Positions 18,021 through 30,650 of a stretch of DNA of 64,000 nucleotides are shown piece by piece. The notes below the pieces were generated by a model, which saw nothing but the letters and a program-made list of their open reading frames with translations, had not been told where the DNA came from and made no database searches. Each line of letters begins with the position of its first letter. Positions within the stretch are counted from its first letter, which is position 1. A program made the position numbers and the translations under genes. The stretch spans positions 1,266 through 65,265 of the forward strand of contig JAUWCJ010000001.1 in NCBI GenBank assembly GCA_030609365.1, in the 5' to 3' direction. The DNA comes from Candidatus Eiseniibacteriota bacterium. Its GTDB lineage: Bacteria; Joyebacterota; Joyebacteria; Joyebacterales; Joyebacteraceae.

Positions 18021-19964
18021 CTACTGAACGGGTTCGTCCTCCGAACGTCCGCCCATGTGCTTCGCCAGGAACCTCTCCGCGTCACCATAGAACCTAAGCC
18101 TGTTCTCAGGCTTGGCAAACCCGTGCCCCTCATCCTCGAAGACGATGTACCCGACCTCGAGGCCGTTGGCCTTCATAGCCTCGACGAACTGGTCGGACTC
18201 CGCCTGCACGACGCGCACGTCGTTGGCGCCCTGCGCGACGAGCATGGGGATCTTCACCTGGTCGACGCTGAACAGAGGTGAACGTGATCTCAGGAATTCC
18301 TCTTCCGTCCTCGGGTCGCCCACCCGCTTGTACATCATCTCGATCATCGTGCTCCAGTAGGGCGGGATCGTTTCGAGGAAGCTGATGAGATTGCTGGGCC
18401 CCATCATCGGAATGGCACAGCAGAAGAGGTCGGGCGTGAAGGTCGCGCCGGCGAGCGCCGCGTAACCACCGTACGATGCGCCGTAGATGGCGATGCGCTC
18501 GGGATCGGCGATGCCCTTGTCGATGGCCCAGTTGACGGCGTCGGTGAGGTCGTTCTGCATCGTGCCGCCCCACTCTTTGTCACCGGCGTTCAGGAACTCC
18601 TTGCCGTAGCCCGTCGAGCCGCGGAAGTTCACCTGCAGGCAGACGTAGCCACGGTTCGCCAGCCACTGCGCCTCGGGGTTGTAACCCCAGTTATCTCTGG
18701 CCCAGGGACCGCCGTGAACGTTCAGGACCAGCGGTAAATTCCGCCGCGCCACGCCCGAAGGATAGGTGATGTAGCCGTGGATGGTGAGTCCGTCGCGCGA
18801 CGTGAACGAGATGGGCTCGATGGGCACCAAGTTGTAGCCCTCGAGGTCCGGCTTGTGCACGAAGAGGAACGTGCCCTCCTTCGTGTTGCGGTCGTAGCTG
18901 TAGAACGGCACCGGGCCGTCGTCCTTGCTGAAAGCCACGATCCAGGTGTCGTAGTCGTTGTCGTAGCTCGTGATACTGAAGTCGCCGCTGTCCAGCTTCT
19001 CTATCGCCGCGAAGTCGTCCGCGACGGCGTCGTCCAGGATCTTCCACTCGTTCTTGGCCTTCGTGAACGCCACGGCCTCTATCTCGTAGGTGTCCGGATT
19101 GACCATGACGTCGCTGACGTCGTAGATCGGGTCCTCGGCCATGATCGTAAGCTCGCGCGTCTCGAGGTCCAGCCTGACGAGACGGCCCGTGTTGGCGTTT
19201 CGCGAGTCGATCATGTACAGCGATCCGCCGTCCTTGGTGAAGGCGAGCGGACTGCTGACCATGTTGTCCTCGTCGCCCCACGTGATGAGCGTCTCCCACG
19301 TAGCGGCGGCGGGATCCTCACGATAGAGCAGCTTGGTGTCGCCCGTCGGTCCCATAGCGAGCGCCCCACGAACGTCGAGGTTGAAGTCCGTGATCCATCC
19401 GAGGATGTTCCCGGGGTTCCTGGCCACGAGTGTGAGTTCGCCCGTGTCCAGCTCGAGACGGTAGACGTCGTGAAGGCGAGGGTCCTGTTGGTTCATCGAG
19501 ATGACCATCGTGTTCGGGTGGTGCTTGCTGTAGTCCAGGACTCGGACCTGCACGCCCTCGAAGGGCGTGAGCTCGCTGACCTCCCCGCTCTCAATGTTCA
19601 CGGAGTAGAGAAGCCAGTTCTCGTCGCCGCCGGCGTCCTGTAGATAGATGATGTGGTTGCTGTCCTGAGCCCAGAAGAAACGGAACACACCGCGGTTGTC
19701 GTCGTGCGTCACCGCGCGGTCGTCGTCCTCGCCTATGGTCTTGACCCAGACGTTGAGCACGTCATCGACGGGAGCGATGTATGACATCAGCTCGCCGCTC
19801 GGAGATATCCTCGCGCGGGCTCTCTCGGGGTTGCCAAAGAGGATGGTGCGGGGAATCAACTCCACATCACCGCCGCCACCGCACGACGTCAACAAGACGG
19901 CGGCGCCGACGAGAATCACGGCGGCAAGAACAACTGCCACGGGTCCTACGTGCTTCTTGTTCAT
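18021..19964 (-). CDS. S9 family serine peptidase (prolyl oligopeptidase/dipeptidyl-peptidase type), secreted
   Basis: Signal peptide MNKKHVGPVAVVLAAVILVGAAVLLTSC, an N-terminal beta-propeller region and a C-terminal alpha/beta hydrolase with nucleophile elbow GASYGGY. Asp and His regions follow (..VAQGANDVRV.., ..EDEGHGF..). Confidence 0.85.
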   Translation of the reverse strand: MNKKHVGPVAVVLAAVILVGAAVLLTSCGGGGDVELIPRTILFGNPERARARISPSGELMSYIAPVDDVLNVWVKTIGEDDDRAVTHDDNRGVFRFFWAQDSNHIIYLQDAGGDENWLLYSVNIESGEVSELTPFEGVQVRVLDYSKHHPNTMVISMNQQDPRLHDVYRLELDTGELTLVARNPGNILGWITDFNLDVRGALAMGPTGDTKLLYREDPAAATWETLITWGDEDNMVSSPLAFTKDGGSLYMIDSRNANTGRLVRLDLETRELTIMAEDPIYDVSDVMVNPDTYEIEAVAFTKAKNEWKILDDAVADDFAAIEKLDSGDFSITSYDNDYDTWIVAFSKDDGPVPFYSYDRNTKEGTFLFVHKPDLEGYNLVPIEPISFTSRDGLTIHGYITYPSGVARRNLPLVLNVHGGPWARDNWGYNPEAQWLANRGYVCLQVNFRGSTGYGKEFLNAGDKEWGGTMQNDLTDAVNWAIDKGIADPERIAIYGASYGGYAALAGATFTPDLFCCAIPMMGPSNLISFLETIPPYWSTMIEMMYKRVGDPRTEEEFLRSRSPLFSVDQVKIPMLVAQGANDVRVVQAESDQFVEAMKANGLEVGYIVFEDEGHGFAKPENRLRFYGDAERFLAKHMGGRSEDEPVQ

Positions 19965-20007
19965 CTTCCCTCCCTGCAGCTAAACATGGGTTCTAAGGAC
20001 CGACCGC

Positions 20008-20694
20008 TCAGGACCTGCCGTTCATCCGAGCGGCGACCTCATCCGCTTCAGTTCCGTGGTCGAAGTAGCTCGACAGTCTTTGTCTCAAGAACAGACGCGC
20101 CCGGTGAAGCCTCGACTTCACCGCGGGGATGGAGAGCCCCAGCGCGTCAGCGGTGTCGTTCGTCGAGAGACCGTGCACGTCTCGCATGAGGAAGACGATG
20201 CGGTTGTCCGGGTCGAGCTCGTTGACGTGCCGCACGAGCACGTCGGAGAGCTCGTTGTTCATCACATCAGCGCGGGGATCGTTCGTCCAGTCGGCCAGGT
20301 CCCTGCTGACGTCGCCCTCTTCCAGCTCTACGGGCTGATCCAGGGAAACGGTGTCCAGCTTCTTCTTGCGGAGCCTCATCAGGCTTTCGTTGTAGGCGAT
20401 CCGGTACAGCCACGTTGAGAAACGCGCCTCCTCGCGGAACCCCGGCAGTGCCTTGAACGCCTTGATGAATACTTCCTGAAGGCAGTCCTCGGCGTCCTCC
20501 TGGTTCCCGAGCATCTTGAGACACAGCCCGTAGATCTTGGCCTCGTTCCGCTCCACGAGTTCCCCGAACGCGTCGGCGTCTCCCGCCTTGGCGCTCCGGA
20601 CCAGTTCGTTGTCGGAAGGAAGCTTCTGGGCCGTCATGTCGGCTCCCGAAGACGTGACCGAGTAAAGGAACGTCCGGCTACCACCGGCGGTCAT
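20008..20694 (-). CDS. RNA polymerase ECF-type sigma-70 factor
   Basis: Region 2 (..FGELVERNEAKIYGLCLKMLGN..DCLQEVFIKAFKALPGF..FSTWLYRIAYNESL..) and region 4 (..VHGLSTNDTADALGLSIPAVKSRLHRARLFLR..). Confidence 0.85.
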   Translation of the reverse strand: MTAGGSRTFLYSVTSSGADMTAQKLPSDNELVRSAKAGDADAFGELVERNEAKIYGLCLKMLGNQEDAEDCLQEVFIKAFKALPGFREEARFSTWLYRIAYNESLMRLRKKKLDTVSLDQPVELEEGDVSRDLADWTNDPRADVMNNELSDVLVRHVNELDPDNRIVFLMRDVHGLSTNDTADALGLSIPAVKSRLHRARLFLRQRLSSYFDHGTEADEVAARMNGRS

Positions 20695-20703
20695 GGCCGG
20701 TGG

Positions 20704-21183
20704 TCAGTACCAGTCTCCGCCGATCGCGCGCGTTCCGAACTCCTCGCGCGCGATCTGGGCAACGAGTCGGGGCACCGCGTCTGCAACGACGTCCGACTCG
20801 ATCGTGTCTCCCGGGCTCTCGCCGAGCTCTATCGCGTAGATGGATATCTCCAGCGGGATACCGATATCCTTTGCGCCCTCCAGGTGGACGGTCGCGCTGT
20901 ACTCCGTGTCGCCACGACCCTGGGCTCGAGGAACGAGATCCAGATCGGACAGCCCCAGCTTCCTCAGTTCCCCGACGTCGCCTTCGCCGTTCCTGATGCA
21001 GTCCACGACCACGACCTTGTGATAGCCGGCCGCGATCTCGAAGAGGTCCATCGCCGTGTCGTACGCCTCAACGATATCGACATCCGGATCCGCGAGCATG
21101 GTGTACAGACCGCGCGCCACCTCCAGCCCGACGCGCTGGCCCACGAACCCCTGACTACCAAGCCCCAGGATGAGAGTTCTCAT
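20704..21183 (-). CDS. Hydrogenase maturation protease homolog (HybD/HycI/FrhD family, peptidase A31-like)
   Basis: It aligns by eye with E. coli HybD: MRTLILGLGSQGFVGQRVGLEVARGL vs MRILVLGVGNILLTDEAIGVRIVEAL. The conserved Asp (VVVVDCI) and His (ATVHLEG) are present, but the first metal ligand Glu is Gln. There is no hydrogenase large subunit in the window. Confidence 0.55.
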   Translation of the reverse strand: MRTLILGLGSQGFVGQRVGLEVARGLYTMLADPDVDIVEAYDTAMDLFEIAAGYHKVVVVDCIRNGEGDVGELRKLGLSDLDLVPRAQGRGDTEYSATVHLEGAKDIGIPLEISIYAIELGESPGDTIESDVVADAVPRLVAQIAREEFGTRAIGGDWY

Positions 21184-21232
21184 CGTCCTCCGCCCCTACC
21201 TTGTGACACGCCGGCCTACTACCGCCGGTTGC

Positions 21233-22861
21233 CTACGCCAGAAGTTCTATCTTTCTCTCTACCGTCGCGGCGCGTCTGTACTCCGGCAGCAACATCGGCG
21301 AGACATTCGTCGGCTCGACGCCCGCCGCTTTCAGAGCCGCATGGTAGTTCTTCAGATGATCGAGACCGAGGCCACCAGCGGTCTTGATGCCCGCCGCCTG
21401 GGCCGCGGCAGCCACTCCGGCCCGCCGCCCAAAGACTACCACGTCCAGGAGCGAGTTGCCCATGAGCCGGTTAGTGCCGTGTATGCCGCCCGCGACCTCG
21501 CCGGCCGCATAGAGGCCGGGAACGGGCGTTTCGCACCGCTCGTTGATCTCGAGGCCACCGTTCTGGTAATGCTGCGTCGGGTAGATGAGAATCGGGTGCT
21601 TCGCCATGTCGATCCCGAACCGCTCGTACTGGCGGTACATCGCCGGGACGCGCGCCTTGACGGCGCCCTCGCCGAGCTTCTTCTCAATGACGACGGTGTC
21701 CAGCCACACGGCGGGCTGACCGGACGGCGTGACAACGCCCTTCTTTCGTCCCAGGCACTCGCGAATGACGGCCGCCGCCTCGACGTCTCTGGTCTCCAGC
21801 TCGTAGACGAACCGGTCGCCTTCCGTGTTCGTGATCTGACCACCGATGCTCCGGACCTTCTCGGTCACAAGAAGACCGAGGATCTGCTCGGGATAGGCCG
21901 CGCCCGTCGGGTGGTACTGGATCGTGTCGAGGTACTGGAGGGGTGCGCCCACCCGATAGCCAAGCACGAGCCCGTCGGCCGTGGCGCCGTAGTGATTCGA
22001 GGTCGGAAAGCCCATGACGTGAAGCCGCCCACCACCGCCGGTAGCCAGGATCGTTGTCTTCGCCCTGACGATGAGATACTCCTGCGTCTCCATATTGTAG
22101 AGGACCGCGCCCGTCACTCTGTCGCCGTCGGTCAGAAGCTCGTAGACGGCGGCGAACTCCACCAGCGGGACGTCACGGTTGAGCATCTCGTCCTTGAGTG
22201 TCTTCATTATCTCACCACCCGTGAAGTCGCGCGCGGCGTGCATCCTCTTTCTGGAGGTGCCTCCGCCGTGGATGGTGATCATGGTGCCGTCGCTCTCCTT
22301 GTCGAACATCACGCCGAGCTTCTCGAGCCAGGCGAGCGCTTCGGGAGCGTCCATGACGAGCGCCTTCGCCAACTCGGGGTCGTTCTTGTAGTGCCCGCCG
22401 CCCAGAACGTCGAGGTAGTGGATCGCGGGGGAATCGTTGGGCTTGTCGGCACCCTGGATGCCGCCCTGCGCCATGACGGTGTTGGAATCGCCCAGGCGCA
22501 GCTTAGTGACCACAAGCACGTTGGCGCCCTGCTCCTGCGCCACGAGCGCCGCGGCCGCACCGGCGCCGCCGCCACCCACGATCAGAACGTCCACGTCGAA
22601 GTCGACCTTCGAGAGATCGAACCCGTCCGGATCCAGCCCGCTGTAGGCCTCGAAGACCCTGGCGTACTCGGTGGGCGTGCGCTCGCCCTTTGACGGACCG
22701 ACTCTCAGCTCACTGAAGACCTCATCCTTGTAGTCCGGATGGAAGCCCTCGAGGAGTTCCTGCTTGGCGTCAGCGGAGAGAAGCGGGAACTCCTCGTCCA
22801 GCCTCCGCTCGCGCGTCGCTTCGACACGCTTGATCAGCTCGAGCAATTCCGGTGTGTACAA
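21233..22861 (-). CDS. Succinate dehydrogenase/fumarate reductase flavoprotein-subunit-like (SdhA/FrdA/TfrA family)
   Basis: N-terminal FAD fold VDVLIVGGGGAGAAAALVAQEQGANV, FAD-binding/capping domain motifs (..HYGATADG.., ..RLMGNSLLD..), ~540 aa. It is adjacent to an Fe-S subunit gene. Confidence 0.8.
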   Translation of the reverse strand: MYTPELLELIKRVEATRERRLDEEFPLLSADAKQELLEGFHPDYKDEVFSELRVGPSKGERTPTEYARVFEAYSGLDPDGFDLSKVDFDVDVLIVGGGGAGAAAALVAQEQGANVLVVTKLRLGDSNTVMAQGGIQGADKPNDSPAIHYLDVLGGGHYKNDPELAKALVMDAPEALAWLEKLGVMFDKESDGTMITIHGGGTSRKRMHAARDFTGGEIMKTLKDEMLNRDVPLVEFAAVYELLTDGDRVTGAVLYNMETQEYLIVRAKTTILATGGGGRLHVMGFPTSNHYGATADGLVLGYRVGAPLQYLDTIQYHPTGAAYPEQILGLLVTEKVRSIGGQITNTEGDRFVYELETRDVEAAAVIRECLGRKKGVVTPSGQPAVWLDTVVIEKKLGEGAVKARVPAMYRQYERFGIDMAKHPILIYPTQHYQNGGLEINERCETPVPGLYAAGEVAGGIHGTNRLMGNSLLDVVVFGRRAGVAAAAQAAGIKTAGGLGLDHLKNYHAALKAAGVEPTNVSPMLLPEYRRAATVERKIELLA

Positions 22862-22871
22862 CTCGTGCCCC

Positions 22872-23555
22872 CTAGCCTCTCGGCTCCATGTCTCGGTTGT
22901 TGTAGAGCTCGGCCAGGTCGGCCTGCTTCATCTTCGTCAACTTGTCCATCTCATCGTTGAACGTGCCGTCCGCCATCTCCTTGAGCCGGTCCTTCAGGTG
23001 CGGCGCCTCGGCGGCTACGTGACGCGAGTAGAGCCTGCGGCACAGAAGCGCGACCTGATACTGCACGATCTCCGCGGGACATCTCGAAGCGCAGAGCCCG
23101 CAGAGGATGCAGTCGAAGGAGAGGTCGGCGGCCTTTGCGATGTCGCCCCTGAGCGCGGCCTGGATGTACTCCATGACCTCGATGTCCTGAGGACAGGCCT
23201 TCGTGCACGTGTTGCAGGAGAGACAGCGGAAGACCTCCGGGTAGAGCGAGAGTATCGCATCGGCGGTCGGTTTCAGGTCCTCGATGTCGTAGGTCGCCTT
23301 GTTGCCCGGGAAGAACGGGATCTCGGCGAGGTACATCTCGTCCTGCACGACCTCCTGACAGGCGAGGCCGACCTTGAGACGGTAGTCGTCCTTTGTTCGG
23401 TAGACGGTTCCGCAGGCGCCGCAGAACGCTCCCCTGCACCCGCAGCCCCTCACGAACCGGTAGCCCGCGTACTCCATGGCCTTCATGATGGTGAGGTCGC
23501 CGGGGACCTCGTAAGGCTTGCCCATCACGTAGATGGTCACCATCTGTTCTGCCAT
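22872..23555 (-). CDS. Succinate dehydrogenase/fumarate reductase iron-sulfur-subunit-like (2Fe-2S + two 4Fe-4S motifs)
   Basis: C-x4-C-x2-C (CRGAFCGAC) 2Fe-2S motif plus two CxxCxxCxxxCP motifs (CLSCNTCTKACP, CILCGLCASRCP). Confidence 0.75.
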   Translation of the reverse strand: MAEQMVTIYVMGKPYEVPGDLTIMKAMEYAGYRFVRGCGCRGAFCGACGTVYRTKDDYRLKVGLACQEVVQDEMYLAEIPFFPGNKATYDIEDLKPTADAILSLYPEVFRCLSCNTCTKACPQDIEVMEYIQAALRGDIAKAADLSFDCILCGLCASRCPAEIVQYQVALLCRRLYSRHVAAEAPHLKDRLKEMADGTFNDEMDKLTKMKQADLAELYNNRDMEPRG

Positions 23556-23641
23556 CGTAGCTTCTCCCCCTTGTTTCCAGTCGGGACGTGGTCGCCGTCC
23601 GCGGACCGGCCGCCCGAGCCTTCGGGAACCGACCGTGTAGT

Positions 23642-24067
23642 CTAGGCGACCTTCTCCTGTTCCTTCAAGCCGAGCTCCAGAGACCCGAGCTCCTTGATCG
23701 TATCGACGAAATCGGACATCACGTGGACCAGCTTCTCTCCCTCGGCAGCGGAGATCCAGTCGAGCTGCAGACGCTCAGGATCTATGCCCACGTCCTCAAG
23801 CGTGCGCTTGAGGAACTGAACGCGGCGCATGGTCTTGTGGTTCCCCTCCTCGTAGTGACAGTCGCCGGGATGGCAGCCGCCGACGAGCACGCCGTCGGCA
23901 CCTTCCCGAAACGCCCAGAGGACGTGCTGAGGGTCGATGCGCCCCGTGCAGTTGACTCGCACGACCACGCCGTTCGGCGGGTACTGTTTCCGCGAGGTGC
24001 CGGCGAGGTCCGCGCCGGCGTACGTGCACCACTTGCAGAAGAAACAGACGATTCTCGGTTCGAACAT
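23642..24067 (-). CDS. mvhD: Methyl-viologen-reducing hydrogenase delta-subunit-like protein (MvhD)
   Basis: Motifs CFFCKWCTYAGAD, ..VNCTGRIDP.. and GADGVLVGGCHPGDCHYEEGN match the MvhD family. Its start lies 1 nt after the HdrA stop. Confidence 0.8.
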   Translation of the reverse strand: MFEPRIVCFFCKWCTYAGADLAGTSRKQYPPNGVVVRVNCTGRIDPQHVLWAFREGADGVLVGGCHPGDCHYEEGNHKTMRRVQFLKRTLEDVGIDPERLQLDWISAAEGEKLVHVMSDFVDTIKELGSLELGLKEQEKVA

Positions 24068-24068
24068 G

Positions 24069-26033
24069 TCAGACCTCCAGAGCGGCCGAGACCATTTTGT
24101 AGAGTTGCTCGTCCGTCAGGTTCTTCTGCTGAGCAGAGCCGGACGGGCAGGCGGCGATACACGCTCCGCAGCCCTCGCAGATCGCTTCCTTGATGCGTGC
24201 GACTTTCTTCTCGTCATCGAATTCCGCCGCGTCGTATGGACAGACCGAGATGCACACACGGCACCCGGCGCACGTGTCCTCGTCGATCACGGCGATAACC
24301 GGCTCGCGGTGGTACTCGGTCTCCGCGAAGAGAGCGGCGACCTTGCTCGCGGCGGCCGACGCCTGCGCGACGGACTCCGGAATGTCCTTGGGCCCCTGGG
24401 CCGAGCCCGCGAGATAGAACCCCGGTGTGAGGCTCTCTACGGGCCGAAGCTTCGGGTGCGCCTCGGACAGGAAGCCCCACTCGTCCGTGTGGATCTTGAG
24501 CATGCTGGCGAGCTTCGCGGCGGCCTCGTTCGGAACGGTGGCCAGGCCGAGCACGGCCATGTCAGCCGCGATCTCGATCTTCCTGCCGGAGAGTGTGTCG
24601 ACTCCCCAAACCATGACACGCCCGTCCTCCTCGAAGATCTTCGAGACCTTGCCGCGGATGTAGAGGACGTCGTCCTCCTCGGCCGCGCGGGTGTAGAATT
24701 CCTCGTAGCCCTTTCCGCCCGTCCGGACGTCCATGTAGAAGACGTACGCCTGGCCGTCGTGGACCTTGTGCCTATAGAGCATGGCGTGCTTCGTGAGATA
24801 CATGCAGCAGATCTTGGAGCAGTACGGCAGGTGGTTTTCGGTGTCCCTCGAGCCGCAGCAGGTCAGGAACACGACCTCGGAAGGTACTTCGCCGTCGGAG
24901 GGTCGCAGGACTTCTCCTCCGGTCGGGCCGGACGCCGAGAGCATCCTCTCGAACTGGAGGCTTGTGATGACGTCGGCGTACTTCCCGCCACCGTACTCGC
25001 CCAGGTTCTCAATCGGGTAGAGATCGTAGCCTGTGGCAACAATGATGGCCCCGACCTCCTCCTCAATGAACTCGTCCTTCTGCTCGTAGTCGATGCAGTC
25101 GAGAGGACAGACCTTCGCGCAGATACCGCATTTCCCGTCCTTGAGGAAGTAGGTGCAGTGCTCGGCATCGAGGACCGGTTTGTTCGGCACCGCCTGCGGG
25201 AAGGGAGTGTAGATGGCCTTGCGGTCGGCCAGCTGTTCGTCGAACTCGGACGGCGTCTTGGCCGGGCACTTCTCCACGCACAGACCGCAACCGGTGCAGA
25301 CGTCGCGATTGACGTAGGCGGCCTTCTTCCTGATCTTGACCTTGAAGTTGCCGACGTAGCCGCTGACGTCGTCAACCTCCGAGTAGGTCATGAGCCTAAT
25401 CTTCGGGTGCTGCGCGACCTCGACCATCTTGGGGGTCATGATGCACTGCGAACAGTCGAGCGTCGGGAAGGTCTCGGAGAGCTGCGCCATGTGGCCGCCG
25501 ATGGACGCCGACTTCTCGACGAGAATGACCTCGTGCCCCGCGTTGGCAACGTCGAGCGCCGCCTGGATCCCCGCAATGCCGCCACCCACCACCAGAGCCC
25601 GGGGGGTCATGGGTACTGATATGGGCTCGAGCGCTTCGTCGAGCCGGGCCTTCTCTATCATCACCTTGATGGTTCTGATGGCCTTGCTTGTCGCCGCTTC
25701 CTTGTCGCCCTGATGCACCCAGCTGCACTGCTCGCGGATGTTGGCGATCTCGACCTGATACTGGTTCATCCCCGCCGTCATCCCCGCCCGCCTGAACGTC
25801 GCCTCGTGAAGGGTCGGCGAACACGCCGCCACGATCACGCCGGTCAGGTTGTGCTTCTTGATGGCATCCTTCACCAGGTTCTGACCGGGATCGGAGCACA
25901 TGTAGGTGTAGTCGGTGGAGTAGGCCACTCCCGGATAGTCGGCCAGCTCCTCCGCCACACGCTTGACGTCCACCACGCCGGCGATGTTGGTCCCGCAGTG
26001 GCAAACGAAGACCCCAATGCGTTCTTCCATCAC
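24069..26033 (-). CDS. hdrA: Heterodisulfide reductase subunit A (HdrA, FAD/Fe-S)
   Basis: N-terminal GVFVCHCGTNIAG signature, a FAD-binding GxGxxG (VVGGGIAGIQAAL), multiple CxxCxxCxxxCP ferredoxin motifs, 654 aa. Confidence 0.85.
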   Translation of the reverse strand: MMEERIGVFVCHCGTNIAGVVDVKRVAEELADYPGVAYSTDYTYMCSDPGQNLVKDAIKKHNLTGVIVAACSPTLHEATFRRAGMTAGMNQYQVEIANIREQCSWVHQGDKEAATSKAIRTIKVMIEKARLDEALEPISVPMTPRALVVGGGIAGIQAALDVANAGHEVILVEKSASIGGHMAQLSETFPTLDCSQCIMTPKMVEVAQHPKIRLMTYSEVDDVSGYVGNFKVKIRKKAAYVNRDVCTGCGLCVEKCPAKTPSEFDEQLADRKAIYTPFPQAVPNKPVLDAEHCTYFLKDGKCGICAKVCPLDCIDYEQKDEFIEEEVGAIIVATGYDLYPIENLGEYGGGKYADVITSLQFERMLSASGPTGGEVLRPSDGEVPSEVVFLTCCGSRDTENHLPYCSKICCMYLTKHAMLYRHKVHDGQAYVFYMDVRTGGKGYEEFYTRAAEEDDVLYIRGKVSKIFEEDGRVMVWGVDTLSGRKIEIAADMAVLGLATVPNEAAAKLASMLKIHTDEWGFLSEAHPKLRPVESLTPGFYLAGSAQGPKDIPESVAQASAAASKVAALFAETEYHREPVIAVIDEDTCAGCRVCISVCPYDAAEFDDEKKVARIKEAICEGCGACIAACPSGSAQQKNLTDEQLYKMVSAALEV

Positions 26034-26039
26034 GCCTCC

Positions 26040-26966
26040 CTAAAACAGACTCTTCTCCGCCAGAACGGGTAGCGGGTCCACGGAGTTGTCAGTGAAGTCC
26101 AGGTGCTTCTTGTCAATGCCCAGTGCAATCCCCAGAAGCTGTGTGAAGTAGACCACCGGGACACGACTGAACCCCTTGACGCGCTCGGCCATCTTCTCCT
26201 GATGCCTGTCGAGATTATAGCGGCAGAGCGGGCAGGTCGTGACGATGATGTCGGCGTTGCGTTTGAGCGCGGAGACGACGACGTTCTGTGAGCATGACAC
26301 TGCCAGCTCCTCGTCGTTGACGACCTGGAACCCCCCGCAGCACTCTGTCTTCATCGGGAAATCGACCGCTTCGCATCCGAGCGTCTCGAGGAATTCCTCG
26401 AAGATCGTGGGCTGCTCGGGGTCGTCGAACTTCATCTCGTTCTTGGGGCGAAGCAACATGCACCCGTAGTAGGGCGCCACCTTGAGACCTTCGAGCTTCT
26501 TCGTCACGGCGGAGGCGACTTTGTCGTAGCCGACCACATCGCGCAGCATCTCGATGTAGTGGAGAACCTCCACCTGCCCCTCGTAGTCCTCGTGCGTGTA
26601 GCTCTCTACCTTCTTGCGCGCCTCGGTGTCCGCGCGGAGAAACAGGTTAGTCTTGTCCCTCTTGTCCTCGTCGTCGCGCATCACGTTGTTGCAGCGCTTG
26701 AGAACGTTGTAGCAGAAGGAGCACAGCGTGACGACCTTGTCGCCTAGCCGGGACGCGTAGGACAGGTTCCTTACCCCTGCCAGGACGTCCATCACGCTGT
26801 CGGTCACGAGCGGGTACACGGCGCCGCAGCAGGTCCAGATGGCGAGTTCCTCGAGCTCGACGCCCAGGGCCAAAGCACATTCTCTTGCGGATGTGTCGAA
26901 GTCTCGTGCCCTCTCGTGAAGCGTACAGCCCGGGTAGTACGGGATCTTCATCTCTTTCTCCGGCAC
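26040..26966 (-). CDS. hdrB: Heterodisulfide reductase subunit B-like (two CCG domains)
   Basis: Two Cys-rich CCG-domain signatures: YYPGCTL..WTCCGAVY and YYGCMLLRP..TECCGGF. Confidence 0.8.
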   Translation of the reverse strand: MPEKEMKIPYYPGCTLHERARDFDTSARECALALGVELEELAIWTCCGAVYPLVTDSVMDVLAGVRNLSYASRLGDKVVTLCSFCYNVLKRCNNVMRDDEDKRDKTNLFLRADTEARKKVESYTHEDYEGQVEVLHYIEMLRDVVGYDKVASAVTKKLEGLKVAPYYGCMLLRPKNEMKFDDPEQPTIFEEFLETLGCEAVDFPMKTECCGGFQVVNDEELAVSCSQNVVVSALKRNADIIVTTCPLCRYNLDRHQEKMAERVKGFSRVPVVYFTQLLGIALGIDKKHLDFTDNSVDPLPVLAEKSLF

Positions 26967-26969
26967 GGT

Positions 26970-27413
26970 CTATCCGTTCAGCTTCCTCAATGCCCCGACC
27001 ACACCCATCTGCGGCGCATCCGACATCATCACCTTCGTCAACCCGTCCGCGTCGACCTTCGGTGTCGCGAGCCGGATCCGCAGGACGATGGCCCTCAGCG
27101 CGTCACAGATGCTCGAGAACTCGACGCCCTTCGGGCACCTAGACGCGCATTGCAGACACGACGCGCACGTCCATATGGTCTTCGAACTCAGAACCTCGTC
27201 AATCTGGCCGAGCTGAAGAAGCCTGATGACCTCACTCGGGATTATGTCCATCTCTTCGACGACGGGACACCCGGCCGAGCACCTGCCGCACTGGTAGCAA
27301 GCAAGGATGCTCTGCCCGGAGAGCGTTTCCACCCGGTCGATGGCCTCGTCCTTGACCATGCCCGCGGTGAGCCTGAGTCTCATCGATACCTCCAGGGTAC
27401 AGCTATAGACCAA
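26970..27413 (-). CDS. hdrC: Heterodisulfide reductase subunit C-like (2x4Fe-4S)
   Basis: CYQCGRCSAGCP and CASCLQCASRCP motifs, ~147 aa. The true start may be the internal Met (MRLRL..). The gap to hdrB is 3 nt. Confidence 0.75.
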   Translation of the reverse strand: MVYSCTLEVSMRLRLTAGMVKDEAIDRVETLSGQSILACYQCGRCSAGCPVVEEMDIIPSEVIRLLQLGQIDEVLSSKTIWTCASCLQCASRCPKGVEFSSICDALRAIVLRIRLATPKVDADGLTKVMMSDAPQMGVVGALRKLNG

Positions 27414-27680
27414 TTCGACCGGCCCCGGCCGCTGCTCACGCGATGGGGTCGTTCAAAGCGCCAGCTGCCTGTCAGAGCCGCGTCAGCGCGGTCGGTCGGT
27501 ACGAAAACCAGTCACCGCAACGTCAGCGGTCGGCGCGGCGGTGACATGTCGGTTGGATACTCTACTATGGAGCGCGCCACGAGTCAACCGCTTTCGGCCG
27601 CAAAACCCCACGAAAACGGCACATTTCTGCCCGAACAGCCGTGGACCACGCTCGTCCGCACGGCAGCCCGGAGGCGGGCA

Positions 27681-27709
27681 TCGACAGCACGATGGCCGCG
27701 CTGTATAAT
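27681..27709 (+). promoter_or_regulatory. Sigma-70-like promoter TCGACA-17-TATAAT for the beta-helix secreted protein gene
   Basis: -35 TCGACA at 27681-27686, a 17-nt spacer and a perfect -10 TATAAT at 27704-27709. RBS AAGGAGAGGAGG is at 27717-27728 and the ATG at 27737. Confidence 0.5.
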
Positions 27710-27736
27710 TTTAGCAAGGAGAGGAGGCGTGTCACG

Positions 27737-28798
27737 ATGCGAATGAGACTGCAGTGTTGTGCATTGCTTCTGCTTGCCACCCTGCCGGCCGCCGTCTGTG
27801 CCGGAGTCATCGTCGTCGACCCCGTGGGTGGCGGCGACTACGACAACATACCCGAGGCCATGTTCCACGGTACGGCTGACGACACGGTGCTCGTGTTGCC
27901 GGGCTTCTACGAGGTGGAGACGGGCATTCCTTACCCGTGGCCCATCCTCCTGACGGCCGACAGCCCCGCGCTCGTCAGCCAGGGAGGTGCTGCGCTGACG
28001 CTCATTTTCGGCAACGGTCTGATGCCGGCCCTCGACGTACGGGACGATACGTTCGGCGCGCGGGCCTTCATAGCAGGATTCACGTTCCAGTGGCTGGAGA
28101 CGCCGCTGGACTGGGGCTATCCGACGAGCGGGACCGTCTACTTCACGGACAACATCGTGAAGGGGTGCGAGACGGGAGTGGACGTCCGCATGGGTGAAGG
28201 GCTGGTCGCCAGAAACCTTATCGAGGGACCGGGCACCTACGGGATCCAGACCGGGCACTTCGAGGGCGTGATAGAGGACAACGAGGTGCACGGGTTCAAG
28301 GACGGCATCACGGGCGCGGACGGGAACACGGTGATACAGCGAAACCACATCCACGACAACGGGATCAGCGGTGTGGCGGGGTTCAACGACTGCATCGCCA
28401 TCGACAATGTCGTTGAGGACAACGGCTGGGCCGGGTTCAGCATCTCGTTCGACGCCCACCTGACGGGCAACGTCATCCGTGGCAACGGCACGGGCATCAA
28501 CTTCTGGGGTGGACCGCACAACGGGTTCCTGAACGGGAACGACATCTACGACAACGCGGAGTTCGCCGTGCACTCATACTGCGAAGAGCACATCCCCGTC
28601 CCGCCCGACTTCGACGCCACCATGAACTGGTGGGGTACAACCGACCCGGACGAAATCGCGGCGAGCATCGACGACTGCCACGACAGCATGTGGTCGGCCG
28701 TATGTTTCGTCGTCGAGCCGTGGTGCACGGCGCCCGGGTGCGACCCCACGCCCGCCGAGCTGTCGAGCTGGGGCGCGATCAAGGCTCTGTATAGATGA
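27737..28798 (+). CDS. Secreted right-handed parallel beta-helix repeat protein ending in SWGAIKALYR tag
   Basis: The start at MRMRLQCCALLLLATLPAAVCAG (signal peptide) is preferred to the longer ORF start at 27641. Repeated N-x-I-x-x-N / GxxG beta-helix turns run from NIVKGCETGVDV to GNDIYDNAEF, with an NWWGTTDPDEIAASIDD motif. The extreme C-terminus is ELSSWGAIKALYR. Confidence 0.6.
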   Translation: MRMRLQCCALLLLATLPAAVCAGVIVVDPVGGGDYDNIPEAMFHGTADDTVLVLPGFYEVETGIPYPWPILLTADSPALVSQGGAALTLIFGNGLMPALDVRDDTFGARAFIAGFTFQWLETPLDWGYPTSGTVYFTDNIVKGCETGVDVRMGEGLVARNLIEGPGTYGIQTGHFEGVIEDNEVHGFKDGITGADGNTVIQRNHIHDNGISGVAGFNDCIAIDNVVEDNGWAGFSISFDAHLTGNVIRGNGTGINFWGGPHNGFLNGNDIYDNAEFAVHSYCEEHIPVPPDFDATMNWWGTTDPDEIAASIDDCHDSMWSAVCFVVEPWCTAPGCDPTPAELSSWGAIKALYR

Positions 28799-29864: not shown

Positions 29865-30650
29865 ATGGGCGAACTCGAGGTCAGGGAACTCAGGTCCGGC
29901 GAGGAATCACTATGGCTCGGGTCTGATGCGGAAGGCGGGCCCGGTGCGGACGGCGAATCCGAGAAGCTCACCAAGTTCCGCCGCTTGTTCGAGGAGCGGT
30001 CCTCGCAGGACCCCCGCTCGTTTCTCGTGGCACTCGACGGGCCACGCGCCGCCGGGCGACTGAAGGGACTCTTCCTCAGCGACAAGCTCTACTTCGTCCA
30101 GGAACTCCACTGCGCGGAGGGTCTCCCCTGCAGCGTGGTCGAGGACGCGCTTGCGAGCTTCCTCGGTGACTCGTTCTCGCGCGACGGCATCGGGATCCTG
30201 AGCTGGGACCGGACGAAGAGCGCGGAGACCAACGCCGCGCTCGAGCGCGCGGGGCTTCTGATCGAGAAGAAGAAGGTGTTCGTTGCTCGCGGCCTGAAGG
30301 GTGACCTCCCCCGGCCCGGGACGCACTTCGCGTTCCGGACGCTTGCAGAGGCCGGGAAGGACGAGTTCCTGCCCGTGATGACGGAGGCCGCGGCTACGGG
30401 CGGGCCCTGCACGCCTCGGGGCTTTCGATGCTCGCTGAGCGCGGCGTCACACGGTACGTGGGCTCCACCGACACGCGGAACGGCCCGATGCTCAAGGTCT
30501 TCGAAGCGAACGGATGCCCGCAGACCGGCATACAGCGCTTCTACAAGCCCCCCGCCCGGTAGCGGCGGCGCACCGGACCGATTCTCGTTCGCGGTAGCAG
30601 CGGCAGTGTGCCCGATTCTCCTTTTGACTGCAGGCAAGCTCTCCCTATAG
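29865..30650 (+). CDS. GNAT-like acetyltransferase candidate, probably frameshifted near 30400-30430
   Basis: The first ~180 aa read as a protein (..ALERAGLLIEKKKVFVARGL..). After ~30420 the called frame becomes low-complexity. The +2 frame gives a clean GNAT-like C-terminus ..LAERGVTRYVGSTDTRNGPMLKVFEANGCPQTGIQRFYKPPAR* ending at 30562. Confidence 0.35.
   Translation: MGELEVRELRSGEESLWLGSDAEGGPGADGESEKLTKFRRLFEERSSQDPRSFLVALDGPRAAGRLKGLFLSDKLYFVQELHCAEGLPCSVVEDALASFLGDSFSRDGIGILSWDRTKSAETNAALERAGLLIEKKKVFVARGLKGDLPRPGTHFAFRTLAEAGKDEFLPVMTEAAATGGPCTPRGFRCSLSAASHGTWAPPTRGTARCSRSSKRTDARRPAYSASTSPPPGSGGAPDRFSFAVAAAVCPILLLTAGKLSL

What the first reader, a model, noticed from the sequence alone, without database searches (positions are those of the whole stretch)
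20704..27413. Compact HdrC-HdrB-HdrA-MvhD + soluble SdhB/SdhA-like + HybD-like operon: candidate flavin-based bifurcating fumarate reductase
Seven minus-strand genes are packed with 1-10 nt gaps; the one exception is an 86-nt gap carrying a GTCCGCGGAC palindrome between mvhD and the Sdh genes. The Hdr module is complete: HdrA with the GVFVCHCG signature, HdrB with two CCG domains, HdrC with 2x4Fe-4S, and MvhD. It is directly coupled to a fumarate-reductase-type flavoprotein and an Fe-S subunit with 2Fe-2S plus two 4Fe-4S motifs. No membrane anchor subunits and no hydrogenase or formate dehydrogenase genes are present. Established knowledge: HdrABC-MvhD modules perform flavin-based electron bifurcation with various electron-donor partners, and archaeal thiol:fumarate reductase fuses Frd-like and HdrB-like parts. 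A full HdrABC-MvhD set with a separate soluble SdhAB pair is not a standard arrangement I can name. That suggests a fumarate-linked bifurcating or confurcating complex.
Basis: partly seen in the sequence, partly recalled or inferred. Interest (0 to 1): 0.8.

Follow-up and report, generated by a model that had tools for sequence, protein, structure and literature searches.

The report
Hdr-linked soluble fumarate reductase operon
An uncultured Eisenbacteria-type bacterium has a seven-gene operon joining a membrane-free fumarate reductase to a heterodisulfide-reductase (Hdr) electron-splitting module; the pairing is real, is found in at least ten phyla and has been suspected in the literature, but it has never been tested biochemically.

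Summary
The seven genes are there and their identities are largely as described: HdrC, HdrB, HdrA, MvhD, an Fe-S protein with SdhB-type cluster motifs, a Frd/Sdh-type flavoprotein, and a remote hydrogenase-protease homologue. Corrections: hdrC probably starts at 27383. There is a second larger gap of 49 nt. The GTCCGCGGAC palindrome is chance.

The flavoprotein/Fe-S pair belongs to a distinct, widespread family. It has a 540-aa flavoprotein with all dicarboxylate-binding residues invariant. An invariant Asn replaces the covalent-FAD His. It has no Sdh C-terminal domain.

In 28 of 32 well-flanked loci from at least ten phyla the pair sits beside Hdr genes. It also often sits beside fumarase, aspartase, malic enzyme, succinyl-CoA synthetase or 2-oxoacid:ferredoxin oxidoreductase.

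Relatives carry a Mvh-type [NiFe] hydrogenase, Flx-like NADH modules or HdrL where this operon has nothing. No donor module occurs anywhere in the 64-kb window.

Best reading: a cytoplasmic fumarate reductase wired to an HdrABC-MvhD core. Fumarate acts as the high-potential acceptor, possibly driving ferredoxin reduction. The donor is encoded elsewhere.

The idea has published precedents (tfrAB/Hdr-Flx clusters, the Hydrogenobacter NADH-FRD, type-E FrdABEF). This is therefore a new variant of a known kind, of moderate interest.

The parts
27559..27587 (-). Promoter-like site TTGACT-17-TAGAGT upstream of hdrC
   Evidence: Consensus scan. The -35 TTGAC[T/A] is conserved in the alignment of seven Eisenbacteria-type sequences: the window plus six loci. 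Function not shown.
27511..27545 (-). Leader inverted repeat GTCACCGC-N19-GCGGTGAC between the promoter-like site and hdrC
   Evidence: Read from the sequence. Kept in L001, L005 and L057 with wobble-compatible changes. RNA fold -21.5 kcal/mol, z -1.7. No Rfam family. Role unknown.
26970..27383 (-). hdrC: small subunit with 2x[4Fe-4S] motifs (137 aa from ATG 27383; the ORF extends to TTG 27413)
   Evidence: Fer4_8/Fer4_17 domains. Best NCBIfam match is HdrC TIGR03290, 62 bits, below its cut-off of 160. GGAGG lies 5 nt before ATG 27383.
26040..26966 (-). hdrB: two CCG domains, ten Cys for two non-cubane [4Fe-4S] clusters
   Evidence: PF02754 twice, 68.6 bits. HdrB TIGR03288 scores 178.5 bits and SdhE NF042965 179.7 bits, both below their cut-offs. 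Cysteines read from the translation. The start may be ATG 26951.
24069..26033 (-). hdrA: FAD- and Fe-S-containing subunit, the bifurcation site in characterised Hdr enzymes
   Evidence: NF040770 (HdrA2) 815.9 bits over model positions 1-642 of 777. GVFVCHCG motif, a GGGIAG FAD motif and two ferredoxin domains.
23642..24067 (-). mvhD: [2Fe-2S] connector subunit
   Evidence: PF02662 FlpD 179.7 bits. Matches HdrA2 model positions 647-774 with 172.6 bits.
23556..23641 (-). 86-nt mvhD-frdB spacer with a chance palindrome (23597-23606) and a GGGGGAG Shine-Dalgarno sequence for frdB
   Evidence: In relative L010, Mvh-type hydrogenase genes lie between mvhD and frdB, the position this spacer occupies here.
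22872..23555 (-). frdB: Fe-S subunit with [2Fe-2S] and 2x[4Fe-4S] motifs
   Evidence: Fer2_4 plus Fer4 dicluster domains. 13 invariant Cys. Next to the flavoprotein gene in every locus where its side is present, 67 loci.
21233..22861 (-). frdA: fumarate-reductase-type flavoprotein (542 aa, TTG start) with an 88-aa N-terminal extension, non-covalent FAD predicted and no Sdh C-terminal domain
   Evidence: PF00890 273 bits. Best NCBIfam match TfrA, 344.6 bits against a cut-off of 718. PDB sequence and fold matches are to FrdA/SdhA. N127, H317, R337, R358, H431 and R465 are invariant in 57 sequences.
20704..21183 (-). Gene for a diverged homologue of [NiFe]-hydrogenase maturation protease (HybD/HycI-like)
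   Evidence: TIGR00072 50.2 bits. A family profile hits HycI 5zby (E 0.005) and HybD 1cfz (E 0.03), over the N-terminal half only. Only 134 homologues were found; all 120 listed are about 160 aa or fragments, and every one that carries an organism name is Eisenbacteria or unclassified 'bacterium'. Present downstream of frdA in ten related loci: nine complete plus the truncated L007.
20681..20703 (-). 9-bp GC hairpin directly after the stop codon of the protease-like gene; possible end of the operon
   Evidence: -22.2 kcal/mol for the 58-nt stretch, z -1.4, so weak. The ECF sigma gene probably starts at ATG 20636.

Best explanation
The operon encodes a cytoplasmic fumarate reductase with no membrane anchor. 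FrdA carries non-covalently bound FAD. FrdB carries one [2Fe-2S] and two [4Fe-4S] clusters. This enzyme works as one unit with an HdrABC-MvhD core.

Electrons reach FrdB through the Fe-S chain of the Hdr proteins. The route is HdrC/HdrB, as in the four-gene relatives, and/or MvhD. They then reduce fumarate to succinate at FrdA. Because fumarate/succinate (about +30 mV) is a strong acceptor, it plays the part that CoM-S-S-CoB plays in methanogens. Its reduction can pull the uphill reduction of ferredoxin at the HdrA flavin (flavin-based electron bifurcation).

The low-potential donor module is not in this operon. Relatives carry a Mvh-type [NiFe] hydrogenase, Flx-like NADH dehydrogenase subunits, or HdrL next to mvhD. 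In this organism the donor is probably encoded elsewhere. The retained hydrogenase-protease-like gene hints at a [NiFe] hydrogenase.

The physiological role is to use fumarate as an internal electron sink in a peptide or amino-acid fermenter (aspartate or malate to fumarate to succinate), or in a reductive TCA branch.

What is shown: gene identities, cofactor motifs, conserved linkage, and fumarate-related neighbours. What is inferred: complex formation, direction of electron flow, bifurcation, and the identity of the donor.
For: (1) Domain and motif content of all seven proteins.

(2) FrdA has the Frd/Sdh fold. Foldseek gives 1kf6_A at E 6e-28 and 7d6v_A; phmmer gives 7d6v_A at 1.6e-66. Its substrate residues are invariant in 57 family members with 50-97% identity: H317-P-T, T333-E334, R337, R358-D359, H431, R465.

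(3) An invariant Asn sits at the position of the covalent-FAD His. By established knowledge of Sdh/Frd enzymes, this favours fumarate reduction over succinate oxidation.

(4) Linkage. FrdB-FrdA lie beside HdrC-HdrB, HdrA-MvhD or both in 28 of 32 well-flanked loci. The phyla include Eisenbacteria, TA06, Bathyarchaeia, Thermoplasmata, Chloroflexota, Acidobacteriota, Planctomycetota, Gemmatimonadota, Bipolaricaulia and Clostridia.

(5) Fumarate context in relatives:
- L010: malic enzyme and fumarase.
- L028 (Anoxynatronum): aspartate ammonia-lyase, 677 bits, above its cut-off.
- L061: fumarase and an AspT-family permease.
- L031: SucCD.
- L003, L025, L038: OFOR.

(6) Interchangeable donor modules next to mvhD in relatives:
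- VhuG/VhuA-like hydrogenase in L010 (223 and 381 bits).
- FlxA/B-like subunits in L028 and L061.
- HdrL in L003 and L031, and a 1068-aa HdrA-like gene with the same layout in L038.

(7) Operon-like packing, a conserved promoter-like site, and the same order in about ten Eisenbacteria-type loci.

(8) Published proposals of the same logic for tfrAB/Hdr-Flx/OGOR clusters, including co-expression of most of the cluster (PMC6315080; PMC11636981).
Against: - No donor module is present in the operon or anywhere in the 64-kb window. The reaction cannot be written in full for this organism.
- No biochemical evidence exists for any member of this family. In Endoriftia, tfrAB was the one part of the cluster that did not share the expression pattern.
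- HdrA2B2C2, the closest NCBIfam model for this HdrA, also runs a plain, non-bifurcating ferredoxin-to-disulfide reaction. The presence of HdrA does not prove bifurcation.
- Many relatives have only HdrC-HdrB-FrdB-FrdA, with no HdrA nearby. For those, a simple thiol:fumarate or type-E enzyme is enough.
- Homology of FrdB to SdhB could not be shown.
- Co-transcription and physical association are untested.
Confidence: 0.45

Rival explanations
1. Non-bifurcating soluble fumarate reductase. The same proteins simply pass electrons downhill to fumarate. One route is from reduced ferredoxin through HdrA, like the ferredoxin:heterodisulfide activity of HdrA2B2C2. The other is from an unknown dithiol oxidised at HdrB. 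That would make it a split version of methanogen thiol:fumarate reductase, whose TfrB fuses the FrdB-like and HdrB-like parts. No energy is conserved by bifurcation; the enzyme is a redox-balancing sink.
For: HdrA2B2C2 works with ferredoxin alone as donor and needs no separate donor module (PMC5296606). This HdrA scores best on the HdrA2 model. The most widely conserved core is HdrC-HdrB-FrdB-FrdA without HdrA: 18 of 72 loci overall, 10 of 32 well-flanked ones. This mirrors the Tfr domain content. The TfrB model touches FrdB, HdrC and HdrB weakly. No donor module lies in the window.
Against: Ferredoxin-to-fumarate is a drop of roughly 0.5 V and would waste low-potential reductant. The full HdrA-MvhD pair is kept, tightly packed, in this lineage. 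In Bathyarchaeia, Anoxynatronum and L010 it is kept together with dedicated H2 or NADH modules. That is the layout of known bifurcating Hdr complexes. No thiol carrier gene (DsrC, TusA or a lipoate-binding protein) was seen in the operon.
Confidence: 0.3
2. Type-E quinol:fumarate / succinate:quinone oxidoreductase. HdrB (and HdrC) are really SdhE/SdhF-type peripheral membrane anchors that connect FrdBA to the quinone pool. This would match Sulfolobus SdhABCD, Campylobacter MfrABE and Syntrophobacter FrdABEF. HdrA-MvhD would be a separate function.
For: HdrB scores as well on the SdhE model (NF042965, 179.7 bits) as on the HdrB model (178.5 bits). FrdB has a second [4Fe-4S] motif instead of the [3Fe-4S] motif, as reported for type-E enzymes. 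Four-gene relatives occur in Acidobacteriota, Planctomycetota and Gemmatimonadota.
Against: Both scores lie far below their cut-offs (500 and 345). HdrC is a ferredoxin-type 2x[4Fe-4S] protein, and hdrA and mvhD sit between hdrB and frdB with 1-6 nt gaps. No hydrophobic segment is present. There is no Tat signal on FrdA. An invariant Asn at the covalent-FAD site argues against a succinate dehydrogenase. Relatives swap in soluble H2 or NADH modules, not quinone-binding ones.
Confidence: 0.07
3. The flavoprotein acts on a substrate other than fumarate. Candidates are L-aspartate (NadB-like oxidation feeding electrons into Hdr) or another enoate or dicarboxylate (urocanate, mesaconate, acrylate-type).
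For: All NCBIfam equivalog scores are below their cut-offs. NadB (288 bits) is close to SdhA/FrdA (290 bits). The family has its own architecture: an N-terminal extension and no Sdh C-terminal domain. An aspartate-related gene (aspartase) is adjacent in Anoxynatronum.
Against: NadB has no Fe-S partner, whereas FrdB is invariably adjacent. Fold matches rank FrdA/SdhA first and NadB at rank 50. Neighbours are fumarase, malic enzyme, SucCD and OFOR. Aspartase itself makes fumarate. The complete set of fumarate-binding and proton-donor residues is invariant.
Confidence: 0.08
4. Two unrelated systems that merely sit side by side: an orphan HdrABC-MvhD and an orphan FrdBA, with no functional coupling or separate transcription.
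For: The 86-nt gap separates the two halves. Co-transcription is untested. In Endoriftia, tfrAB expression differed from the rest of the cluster.
Against: The linkage recurs across Bacteria and Archaea, with shuffled gene orders and different donor modules. That is hard to explain without joint function. No terminator-like site or stable structure lies in the gap. frdB has its own Shine-Dalgarno sequence, but no promoter-like site was found.
Confidence: 0.03

Closest known systems
MvhAGD-HdrABC of hydrogenotrophic methanogens, working with thiol:fumarate reductase TfrAB (Methanothermobacter)
   Same: The same four Hdr/MvhD subunits with all cofactor motifs. The overall chemistry that Tfr plus Mvh-Hdr achieve together is H2, fumarate and ferredoxin going to succinate and reduced ferredoxin. 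TfrA is the best-scoring NCBIfam model for the flavoprotein. Relative L010 even carries the Mvh-type hydrogenase in the same cluster.
   Different: No hydrogenase in this operon. FrdB, HdrC and HdrB are separate proteins rather than a fused TfrB. The TfrA and TfrB equivalog cut-offs are missed by a wide margin (344.6 against 718; 29-39 bits against 385). The flavoprotein has an N-terminal extension in place of the usual C-terminal domain. The host is a bacterium; whether it makes CoM or CoB was not examined.
tfrAB + flxABCD-hdrABC + korABCD clusters of Ca. Endoriftia, Thioflavicoccus mobilis and Bipolaricaulia UBA7950, a proposed bifurcating rTCA module (PMC6315080, PMC11636981, bioRxiv 10.1101/2023.11.26.568696)
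   Same: A soluble two-subunit fumarate reductase clustered with Hdr genes. The same proposed logic applies: a high-potential fumarate branch and a low-potential ferredoxin branch. Loci of this type were recovered as relatives here: L031, L025, L028, L061.
   Different: Those clusters carry the NADH-oxidising Flx module and OGOR; this operon has neither. The published model is itself only genomic and transcriptomic. I could not test whether the Endoriftia TfrA belongs to this 540-aa family.
Five-subunit soluble NADH-dependent fumarate reductase FrdABCDE of Hydrogenobacter thermophilus (Miura et al. 2008, as cited in PMC13147460)
   Same: A characterised, soluble, anchor-less fumarate reductase whose FrdAB pair is joined to extra redox subunits. 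It functions in the reductive TCA cycle.
   Different: Its donor is NADH, through subunits absent here. The homologies of subunits C, D and E (HdrA-, MvhD- and GltD-like) are my recollection only; the paper was not available. No HdrBC is reported.
Type-E succinate:quinone / quinol:fumarate oxidoreductases (SdhABEF; Syntrophobacter fumaroxidans FrdABEF, Sfum_4092-4095; Campylobacter/Wolinella MfrABE)
   Same: A flavoprotein, an Fe-S subunit with a second [4Fe-4S] cluster, and a CCG-domain subunit, with no haem or transmembrane anchor. The Syntrophobacter enzyme is induced on fumarate.
   Different: This operon adds HdrC, HdrA and MvhD. The SdhE model cut-off is missed (179.7 against 500). There is no Tat signal. 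Whether Sfum FrdA belongs to this family was not testable here.
HdrA2B2C2 of Methanosarcina acetivorans (PMC5296606)
   Same: This is the best NCBIfam model for HdrA (815.9 bits) and MvhD (172.6 bits). It is an Hdr core that works without a hydrogenase or Fdh module, taking electrons from ferredoxin or F420H2.
   Different: HdrA and MvhD are fused there and separate here. Its acceptor is CoM-S-S-CoB, and no fumarate reductase is attached.

Membership tests
HdrABC-MvhD bifurcating core | HdrA with FAD fold, N-terminal Cys cluster and two ferredoxin domains | tested here: met
   NF040770 scores 815.9 bits over positions 1-642 of 777. The 1100-bit cut-off is missed because MvhD is a separate gene here. 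GVFVCHCG and GGGIAG motifs and two Fer4 domains are present.
HdrABC-MvhD bifurcating core | HdrB with two CCG motifs (ten Cys for two non-cubane clusters) and HdrC with 2x[4Fe-4S] | tested here: met
   PF02754 matches twice. C14, C46, C47, C82, C85 and C169, C209, C210, C245, C248 are present. HdrC has CYQCGRCSAGCP and CASCLQCASRCP. Equivalog cut-offs are not reached (178.5 against 345; 62 against 160).
HdrABC-MvhD bifurcating core | MvhD [2Fe-2S] connector | tested here: met
   PF02662 179.7 bits, full length.
HdrABC-MvhD bifurcating core | An attached low-potential donor module (MvhAG, FdhAB, FlxABC, HdrL or F420H2) | tested here: not met
   None in the operon or in the 64-kb window. Present in relatives L010, L028, L061, L003, L031 and L038.
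HdrABC-MvhD bifurcating core | Coupled reduction of ferredoxin and a high-potential acceptor | not testable with these tools
   Needs enzyme assays.
Sdh/Frd flavoprotein (SdhA/FrdA) | FAD_binding_2 fold with capping domain | tested here: met
   PF00890 273 bits. The AF2 model (pLDDT 74, pTM 0.81) matches 1kf6_A at E 6e-28.
Sdh/Frd flavoprotein (SdhA/FrdA) | Dicarboxylate-binding and proton-donor residues (E. coli FrdA H232, T244/E245, R287, H355, R390) | tested here: met
   H317, T333/E334, R358, H431 and R465 are invariant in 57 sequences. The mapping to E. coli numbering is from my own knowledge of the motifs.
Sdh/Frd flavoprotein (SdhA/FrdA) | Histidine for covalent 8-alpha-FAD linkage (the R-S-H-T motif) | tested here: not met
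   The sequence reads GDSNTVMAQGG. N127 is invariant in 57 sequences.
Sdh/Frd flavoprotein (SdhA/FrdA) | C-terminal helical domain (Succ_DH_flav_C) and equivalog-level score | tested here: not met
   No PF02910 hit. All model matches end near residue 490 of 542 and near model positions 405-420. Scores: TfrA 344.6 against 718, sdhA_frdA 290 against 567, NadB 288 against 453.
SdhB/FrdB iron-sulfur subunit | N-terminal [2Fe-2S] motif plus two cubane-cluster motifs | tested here: met
   Cx4Cx2Cx17C plus two CxxCxxCxxxCP. 13 Cys are invariant.
SdhB/FrdB iron-sulfur subunit | Recognisable homology to SdhB (profile or fold) | tested here: inconclusive
   TIGR00384 scores 28.6 bits against a cut-off of 88. 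A family profile searched against the PDB finds only generic dicluster ferredoxins. The AF2 model is poor (pLDDT 61.5) and its fold search was empty.
Thiol:fumarate reductase TfrAB | TfrB as one chain fusing the Fe-S part with the CCG (HdrB-like) part; TfrA equivalog | tested here: not met
   FrdB, HdrC and HdrB are separate genes, scoring 28.9, 24.4 and 39.3 bits against a TfrB cut-off of 385. TfrA scores 344.6 against 718.
Thiol:fumarate reductase TfrAB | Thiol (CoM-SH + CoB-SH) as electron donor | not testable with these tools
   No thiol-carrier or CoM/CoB gene was seen in the window. Needs assays.
Type-E SQR/QFR (SdhABEF / MfrABE) | CCG-domain SdhE as the only extra redox subunit, at equivalog level | tested here: not met
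   NF042965 scores 179.7 bits against 500. The operon additionally holds HdrC, HdrA and MvhD.
Type-E SQR/QFR (SdhABEF / MfrABE) | Quinone/quinol as redox partner, membrane association | not testable with these tools
   No hydrophobic segments. Biochemistry is needed.
[NiFe]-hydrogenase maturation endopeptidase (HybD/HycI) | Family-level profile match | tested here: met
   TIGR00072 scores 50.2 against 47.45 and PF01750 scores 23.1 against 23.0, so marginal. A family profile hits 5zby (E 0.005) and 1cfz (E 0.03), over the N-terminal half only.
[NiFe]-hydrogenase maturation endopeptidase (HybD/HycI) | Metal-binding triad (HybD Glu16, Asp62, His93) | tested here: inconclusive
   Asp61 is invariant. 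Position 16 is Glu in the family consensus but Gln in this window. The C-terminal half, which holds the His, is not alignable, and no His is invariant. Triad numbering is from memory.
[NiFe]-hydrogenase maturation endopeptidase (HybD/HycI) | A cognate hydrogenase large subunit to process | tested here: not met
   None in the window or within 10 kb in L001 and L002. The rest of the genome is not available.

The most novel reading that the evidence does not exclude
This 540-aa FrdA / FrdB family may be the acceptor module of a widespread, undescribed class of flavin-based bifurcating enzymes, found in at least ten phyla of Bacteria and Archaea. In this class fumarate replaces the heterodisulfide as the high-potential acceptor. 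Interchangeable donor modules (H2, NADH, NAD(P)H) plug in at MvhD.

In the donor-less Eisenbacteria version, the middle-potential donor could be a dithiol oxidised at HdrB. That would make it a thiol-driven bifurcation to fumarate and ferredoxin. The diverged protease-like protein would then have been recruited as a structural or assembly subunit.
Probability: 0.25. Interest if true: 0.75.

Novelty: new variant of a known kind. Interest (0 to 1): 0.5.

Why it matters
If fumarate reduction is coupled to ferredoxin reduction through Hdr, many fermenters and rTCA autotrophs would gain low-potential reductant, and hence energy, from a step usually treated as a plain electron sink. That would change energy budgets for peptide and aspartate fermentation and for the reductive TCA cycle. 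Such a coupling has been proposed but never shown.

This work adds four things to the earlier genomic proposals:
- The Frd pair is a distinct family with a defined signature: invariant Asn at the covalent-FAD site, a conserved N-terminal extension, no Sdh C-terminal domain, and 13 invariant Cys in FrdB.
- The family is almost always linked to Hdr genes.
- The donor modules are interchangeable.
- Two cultured strains (Anoxynatronum sibiricum Z-7981 and A. buryatiense Su22) carry a complete version next to aspartase, so the hypothesis can be tested directly.

It also flags a practical annotation problem. FrdB is named four different ways by pipelines, and no curated model reaches its cut-off for either subunit.

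Tried and rejected
- **Palindrome in the 86-nt gap.** Not conserved, 105 such palindromes in the window, no structure above shuffles. Rejected as a signal.
- **Rfam scan of 19900-28000.** Only one sub-threshold viral hit.
- **FrdB structure.** The AF2 model was poor (pLDDT 61.5). Foldseek gave nothing with E < 1. A family-profile search of the PDB found only generic ferredoxins. SdhB homology is therefore left open.
- **Protease-like protein.** A single-sequence PDB search found nothing. Only the family profile reached HycI and HybD, weakly. The homologue search found only the lineage-specific family, so no hydrogenase-linked relatives could be traced.
- **Donor modules in the window.** Pfam scans of 32 ORFs outside the ten in and next to the cluster gave housekeeping genes only.
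- **Miura et al. 2008 (PMC2580677).** Not held. Subunit details of the Hydrogenobacter enzyme rest on memory and on a secondary citation.
- **Literature phrase search** for 'bifurcating fumarate reductase' and similar terms found no dedicated paper.
- **L-aspartate oxidase and AprA readings** were considered and rejected on fold ranking, the obligatory Fe-S partner and gene context.
- **Idea that the 86-nt gap is a scar of lost mvhGA genes.** Plausible from L010, but the longer gaps in L002, L008, L009 and L023 are not intergenic. They are stretches after the matched part of mvhD that hold Lys/Ala-rich codon repeats, most simply a C-terminal extension of MvhD and not hydrogenase remnants. The idea stays unsupported.

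Full report
**1. Observation**

ORF listing and profile scans confirm seven consecutive minus-strand genes between 20704 and 27413.
- HdrC-like: two CxxCxxCxxxCP motifs.
- HdrB: two CCG domains, all ten Cys.
- HdrA: GVFVCHCG, an FAD motif and two ferredoxin domains; 815.9 bits on the HdrA2 model.
- MvhD: PF02662, 179.7 bits.
- A 227-aa Fe-S protein: Cx4Cx2Cx17C plus two CxxCxxCxxxCP.
- A 542-aa FAD_binding_2 flavoprotein: 273 bits.
- A 159-aa protein that only just reaches the hydrogenase-maturation-protease superfamily threshold: TIGR00072, 50.2 bits against 47.45.

None of the seven has a transmembrane-like segment.

- hdrC most likely starts at ATG 27383, behind a GGAGG, not at TTG 27413.
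- Besides the 86-nt mvhD-frdB gap there is a 49-nt gap before the protease-like gene.
- The GTCCGCGGAC palindrome (23597-23606) is one of 105 ten-nt palindromes in the window. It is mutated in the closest relatives, and the gap folds no better than shuffled sequence.

A promoter-like TTGACT-17-TAGAGT lies upstream of hdrC (27587-27559). It is conserved in the alignment of the window with six related loci. A 9-bp hairpin follows the stop of the protease-like gene. The downstream ECF sigma gene probably starts at 20636. A seven-gene transcription unit is therefore plausible but unproven.

**2. The flavoprotein and its Fe-S partner**

Sequence and fold comparisons place the flavoprotein with FrdA/SdhA.
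- phmmer against the PDB gives M. smegmatis Sdh1 at 1.6e-66 and E. coli FrdA at about 1e-52.
- An AF2 model (pLDDT 74, pTM 0.81) matches E. coli FrdA best (E 6e-28). Flavocytochrome c3 ranks lower. L-aspartate oxidase appears only at rank 50, and AprA not in the top 50.

The protein is not an ordinary SdhA.
- All curated NCBIfam models are missed by a wide margin: TfrA 344.6 against 718, SdhA/FrdA 290 against 567, NadB 288 against 453.
- The matches stop near residue 490, so the Sdh C-terminal domain is absent.
- An 88-residue N-terminal extension is present.

In 57 family members from many phyla (50-97% identity), the substrate-binding and proton-donor residues are invariant: H317-P-T, T333-E334, R337, R358-D359, H431, R465. 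So are residues of the N-terminal extension (R17, H41, D43). The position of the covalent-FAD histidine is always Asn. From established knowledge of complex II enzymes, non-covalent FAD fits a fumarate reductase rather than a succinate dehydrogenase.

The Fe-S protein has 13 invariant cysteines in the SdhB-like order. Homology to SdhB could not be demonstrated, because profile and fold searches returned only generic dicluster ferredoxins or nothing. Annotation pipelines name it four different ways.

**3. Distribution and gene context**

The closest homologues are Eisenbacteria-type metagenome sequences with the same seven genes. They are followed by the same ECF sigma, S9 peptidase and CoA-disulfide-reductase-like genes.

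A scan of one genome per species found the family in these groups:
- Eisenbacteria, TA06, Bathyarchaeia, Thermoplasmata
- Chloroflexota, Acidobacteriota, Planctomycetota, Gemmatimonadota
- Cloacimonadales, Bipolaricaulia, uncultured Clostridia
- two cultured Anoxynatronum strains

FrdB is next to FrdA in every locus where its side is present. Of the 32 loci with at least 9 kb upstream and 3 kb downstream, 28 have Hdr-type genes nearby. Three layouts recur:
- I: HdrC-HdrB-FrdB-FrdA alone.
- II: the same plus HdrA-MvhD. This window belongs here.
- III: HdrL or long HdrA, MvhD, an Fe-S protein, then FrdB-FrdA, without HdrBC.

Neighbours in relatives point to fumarate as the substrate:
- L010: malic enzyme and class I fumarase.
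- L061: fumarase and an AspT-family permease.
- Anoxynatronum L028: aspartate ammonia-lyase (677 bits, above its cut-off) and a CoA-transferase.
- L031: succinyl-CoA synthetase.
- L003, L025, L038: 2-oxoacid:ferredoxin oxidoreductase.

Donor modules are interchangeable:
- L010 has VhuG/VhuA-like [NiFe] hydrogenase genes between mvhD and frdB. That is the position of the 86-nt gap in this window.
- L028 and L061 have FlxA/B-like NAD(P)H modules.
- L003 and L031 have HdrL, and L038 has a 1068-aa HdrA-like gene in the same position.

A rough NJ tree, without bootstrap support, puts L010, L003, L011 and L013 as the nearest outgroups of the Eisenbacteria clade.

**4. What is missing here**

No hydrogenase, formate dehydrogenase, Flx, HdrL or Nuo-type gene occurs in the 64-kb window. 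The remaining genes are housekeeping, with several peptidases.

The protease-like gene belongs to a small family: 134 homologues in 5.8 billion sequences, and every listed member with an organism name is Eisenbacteria or unclassified 'bacterium'. It is conserved downstream of frdA in ten related loci, one of them truncated. Its family profile reaches HycI and HybD only over the N-terminal half. Asp61 is invariant. Position 16 is Glu in the family consensus but Gln in this window. The His-bearing half is not alignable. It may serve a hydrogenase encoded elsewhere, or it may have been co-opted; neither could be tested. The neighbouring phylum Effluviviacota, which supplied locus L012, is reported to carry group 3c [NiFe] hydrogenases (PMC11323493).

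**5. Mechanism**

Fumarate/succinate sits at about +33 mV and NADH at -320 mV (PMC5861303). H2 at -414 mV, ferredoxin at around -450 mV and CoM-S-S-CoB at about -140 mV are from established knowledge. The Frd pair therefore cannot be an electron donor to Hdr. It must be the high-potential acceptor.

The most coherent model runs as follows. A donor module feeds electrons through MvhD to the HdrA flavin. One electron goes uphill to ferredoxin. The other goes downhill through HdrC/HdrB, or directly from MvhD-linked clusters as in layout III, to FrdB, then FrdA, then fumarate.

Layout I implies that HdrBC plus FrdBA can also work alone. That would be a split equivalent of methanogen thiol:fumarate reductase, with a dithiol oxidised at HdrB.

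For this donor-less operon three sub-models remain:
- an external hydrogenase or other donor;
- reduced ferredoxin as the sole donor, non-bifurcating, as shown for HdrA2B2C2 (PMC5296606);
- a dithiol as the middle-potential donor, bifurcating to fumarate and ferredoxin.

I rate the coupled, bifurcating reading at 0.45, the non-bifurcating sink at 0.30, type-E quinol enzyme at 0.07, another substrate at 0.08, and unrelated neighbours at 0.03.

The likely physiological role is an internal electron sink during peptide or aspartate fermentation. The window is peptidase-rich, and Eisenbacteria are described as protein- and peptide-oriented (bioRxiv 10.1101/2025.11.25.690425).

**6. Comparison with what is known**

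The concept is not new.
- tfrAB genes interspersed with flxABCD-hdrABC and korABCD were proposed to form an electron-shuttling, bifurcating complex in tubeworm symbionts and Thioflavicoccus (PMC6315080). This was supported by co-expression of the cluster, except for tfrAB itself (PMC11636981).
- The idea has been reused for Bipolaricaulia and reviewed in 2026 (PMC13147460).
- That review also describes the characterised five-subunit NADH-dependent fumarate reductase of Hydrogenobacter, and notes many 'incomplete' AB-type fumarate reductases.
- Syntrophobacter has an anchor-less type-E frdABEF that is induced on fumarate.
- A preprint lists succinate dehydrogenase among HdrA partners in interaction-network (COG/STRING) data.

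None of these has biochemical proof of Hdr-coupled fumarate reduction. No paper was found that defines this flavoprotein family or the donor-less HdrCBA-MvhD-FrdBA-protease layout.

**7. Verdict**

It is a new variant of a known or proposed kind of system. Interest is moderate (0.5). It is raised by the breadth of the family and by the availability of cultured Anoxynatronum strains for a direct test. It is lowered by the published precedents and the absence of a donor module here.

Noticed in passing
window 27511-27587 (minus strand): The promoter-like site upstream of hdrC is conserved in the alignment of the window with six related loci. It is followed by an inverted repeat GTCACCGC-N19-GCGGTGAC that is kept, with wobble-compatible changes, in the closest relatives. 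No Rfam family matches. It could be an operator or a leader attenuator.
   Followed up: partly
window 16111-17490 (minus strand): A CoA-disulfide-reductase-like gene (TIGR03385, 410 bits against a cut-off of 579) stays in synteny with the cluster in seven Eisenbacteria-type loci. It might supply or recycle a thiol/disulfide partner for HdrB, or it may simply reflect lineage synteny.
   Followed up: no
window 17649-20694 (minus strand): An ECF sigma factor (probable start 20636), an S9 peptidase with an N-terminal hydrophobic segment, and a small zf-HC2 anti-sigma-like ORF (17649-17897) directly follow the operon. They are conserved with it in relatives.
   Followed up: partly
window 30608-33085 (plus strand): A xanthine-dehydrogenase-family molybdopterin subunit has no recognisable Fe-S or FAD partner gene beside it. 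The flanking ORFs 29865-30650 and 33082-35082 have no Pfam match.
   Followed up: no
window 18021-19964, 40216-44835, 50942-52930, 57626-60283: The window has a high density of peptidase genes (S9, a 1539-aa C25-family protein with beta-propeller and beta-helix domains, FtsH, M16). This fits the peptide-degrading lifestyle proposed for Eisenbacteria.
   Followed up: no
L002, L008, L009, L023 (stretch between the matched part of mvhD and frdB): In the more distant Eisenbacteria-type loci, the stretch between the end of the mvhD match and frdB is 230-660 nt. It holds repeated Lys/Ala-rich codons (AAGAAGGCC...). The mvhD gene called in L002 is 173 aa against 141 aa here. This is most simply a low-complexity C-terminal tail on MvhD, not an intergenic gap.
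   Followed up: partly
L028 and L029 (Anoxynatronum sibiricum Z-7981, A. buryatiense Su22): Two cultured strains carry, in order: aspartate ammonia-lyase, FrdB, FrdA, HdrB, HdrC, HdrA, MvhD, Flx-like subunits and a CoA-transferase. This is a ready experimental model for the whole family.
   Followed up: partly
FrdB family (P0241-P0360): Public annotations of the same protein family disagree: 'heterodisulfide reductase subunit C', 'Fe-S oxidoreductase', 'formate hydrogenlyase subunit 6', and 'succinate dehydrogenase/fumarate reductase-like Fe-S protein'. No curated model reaches its cut-off for FrdA or FrdB.
   Followed up: yes
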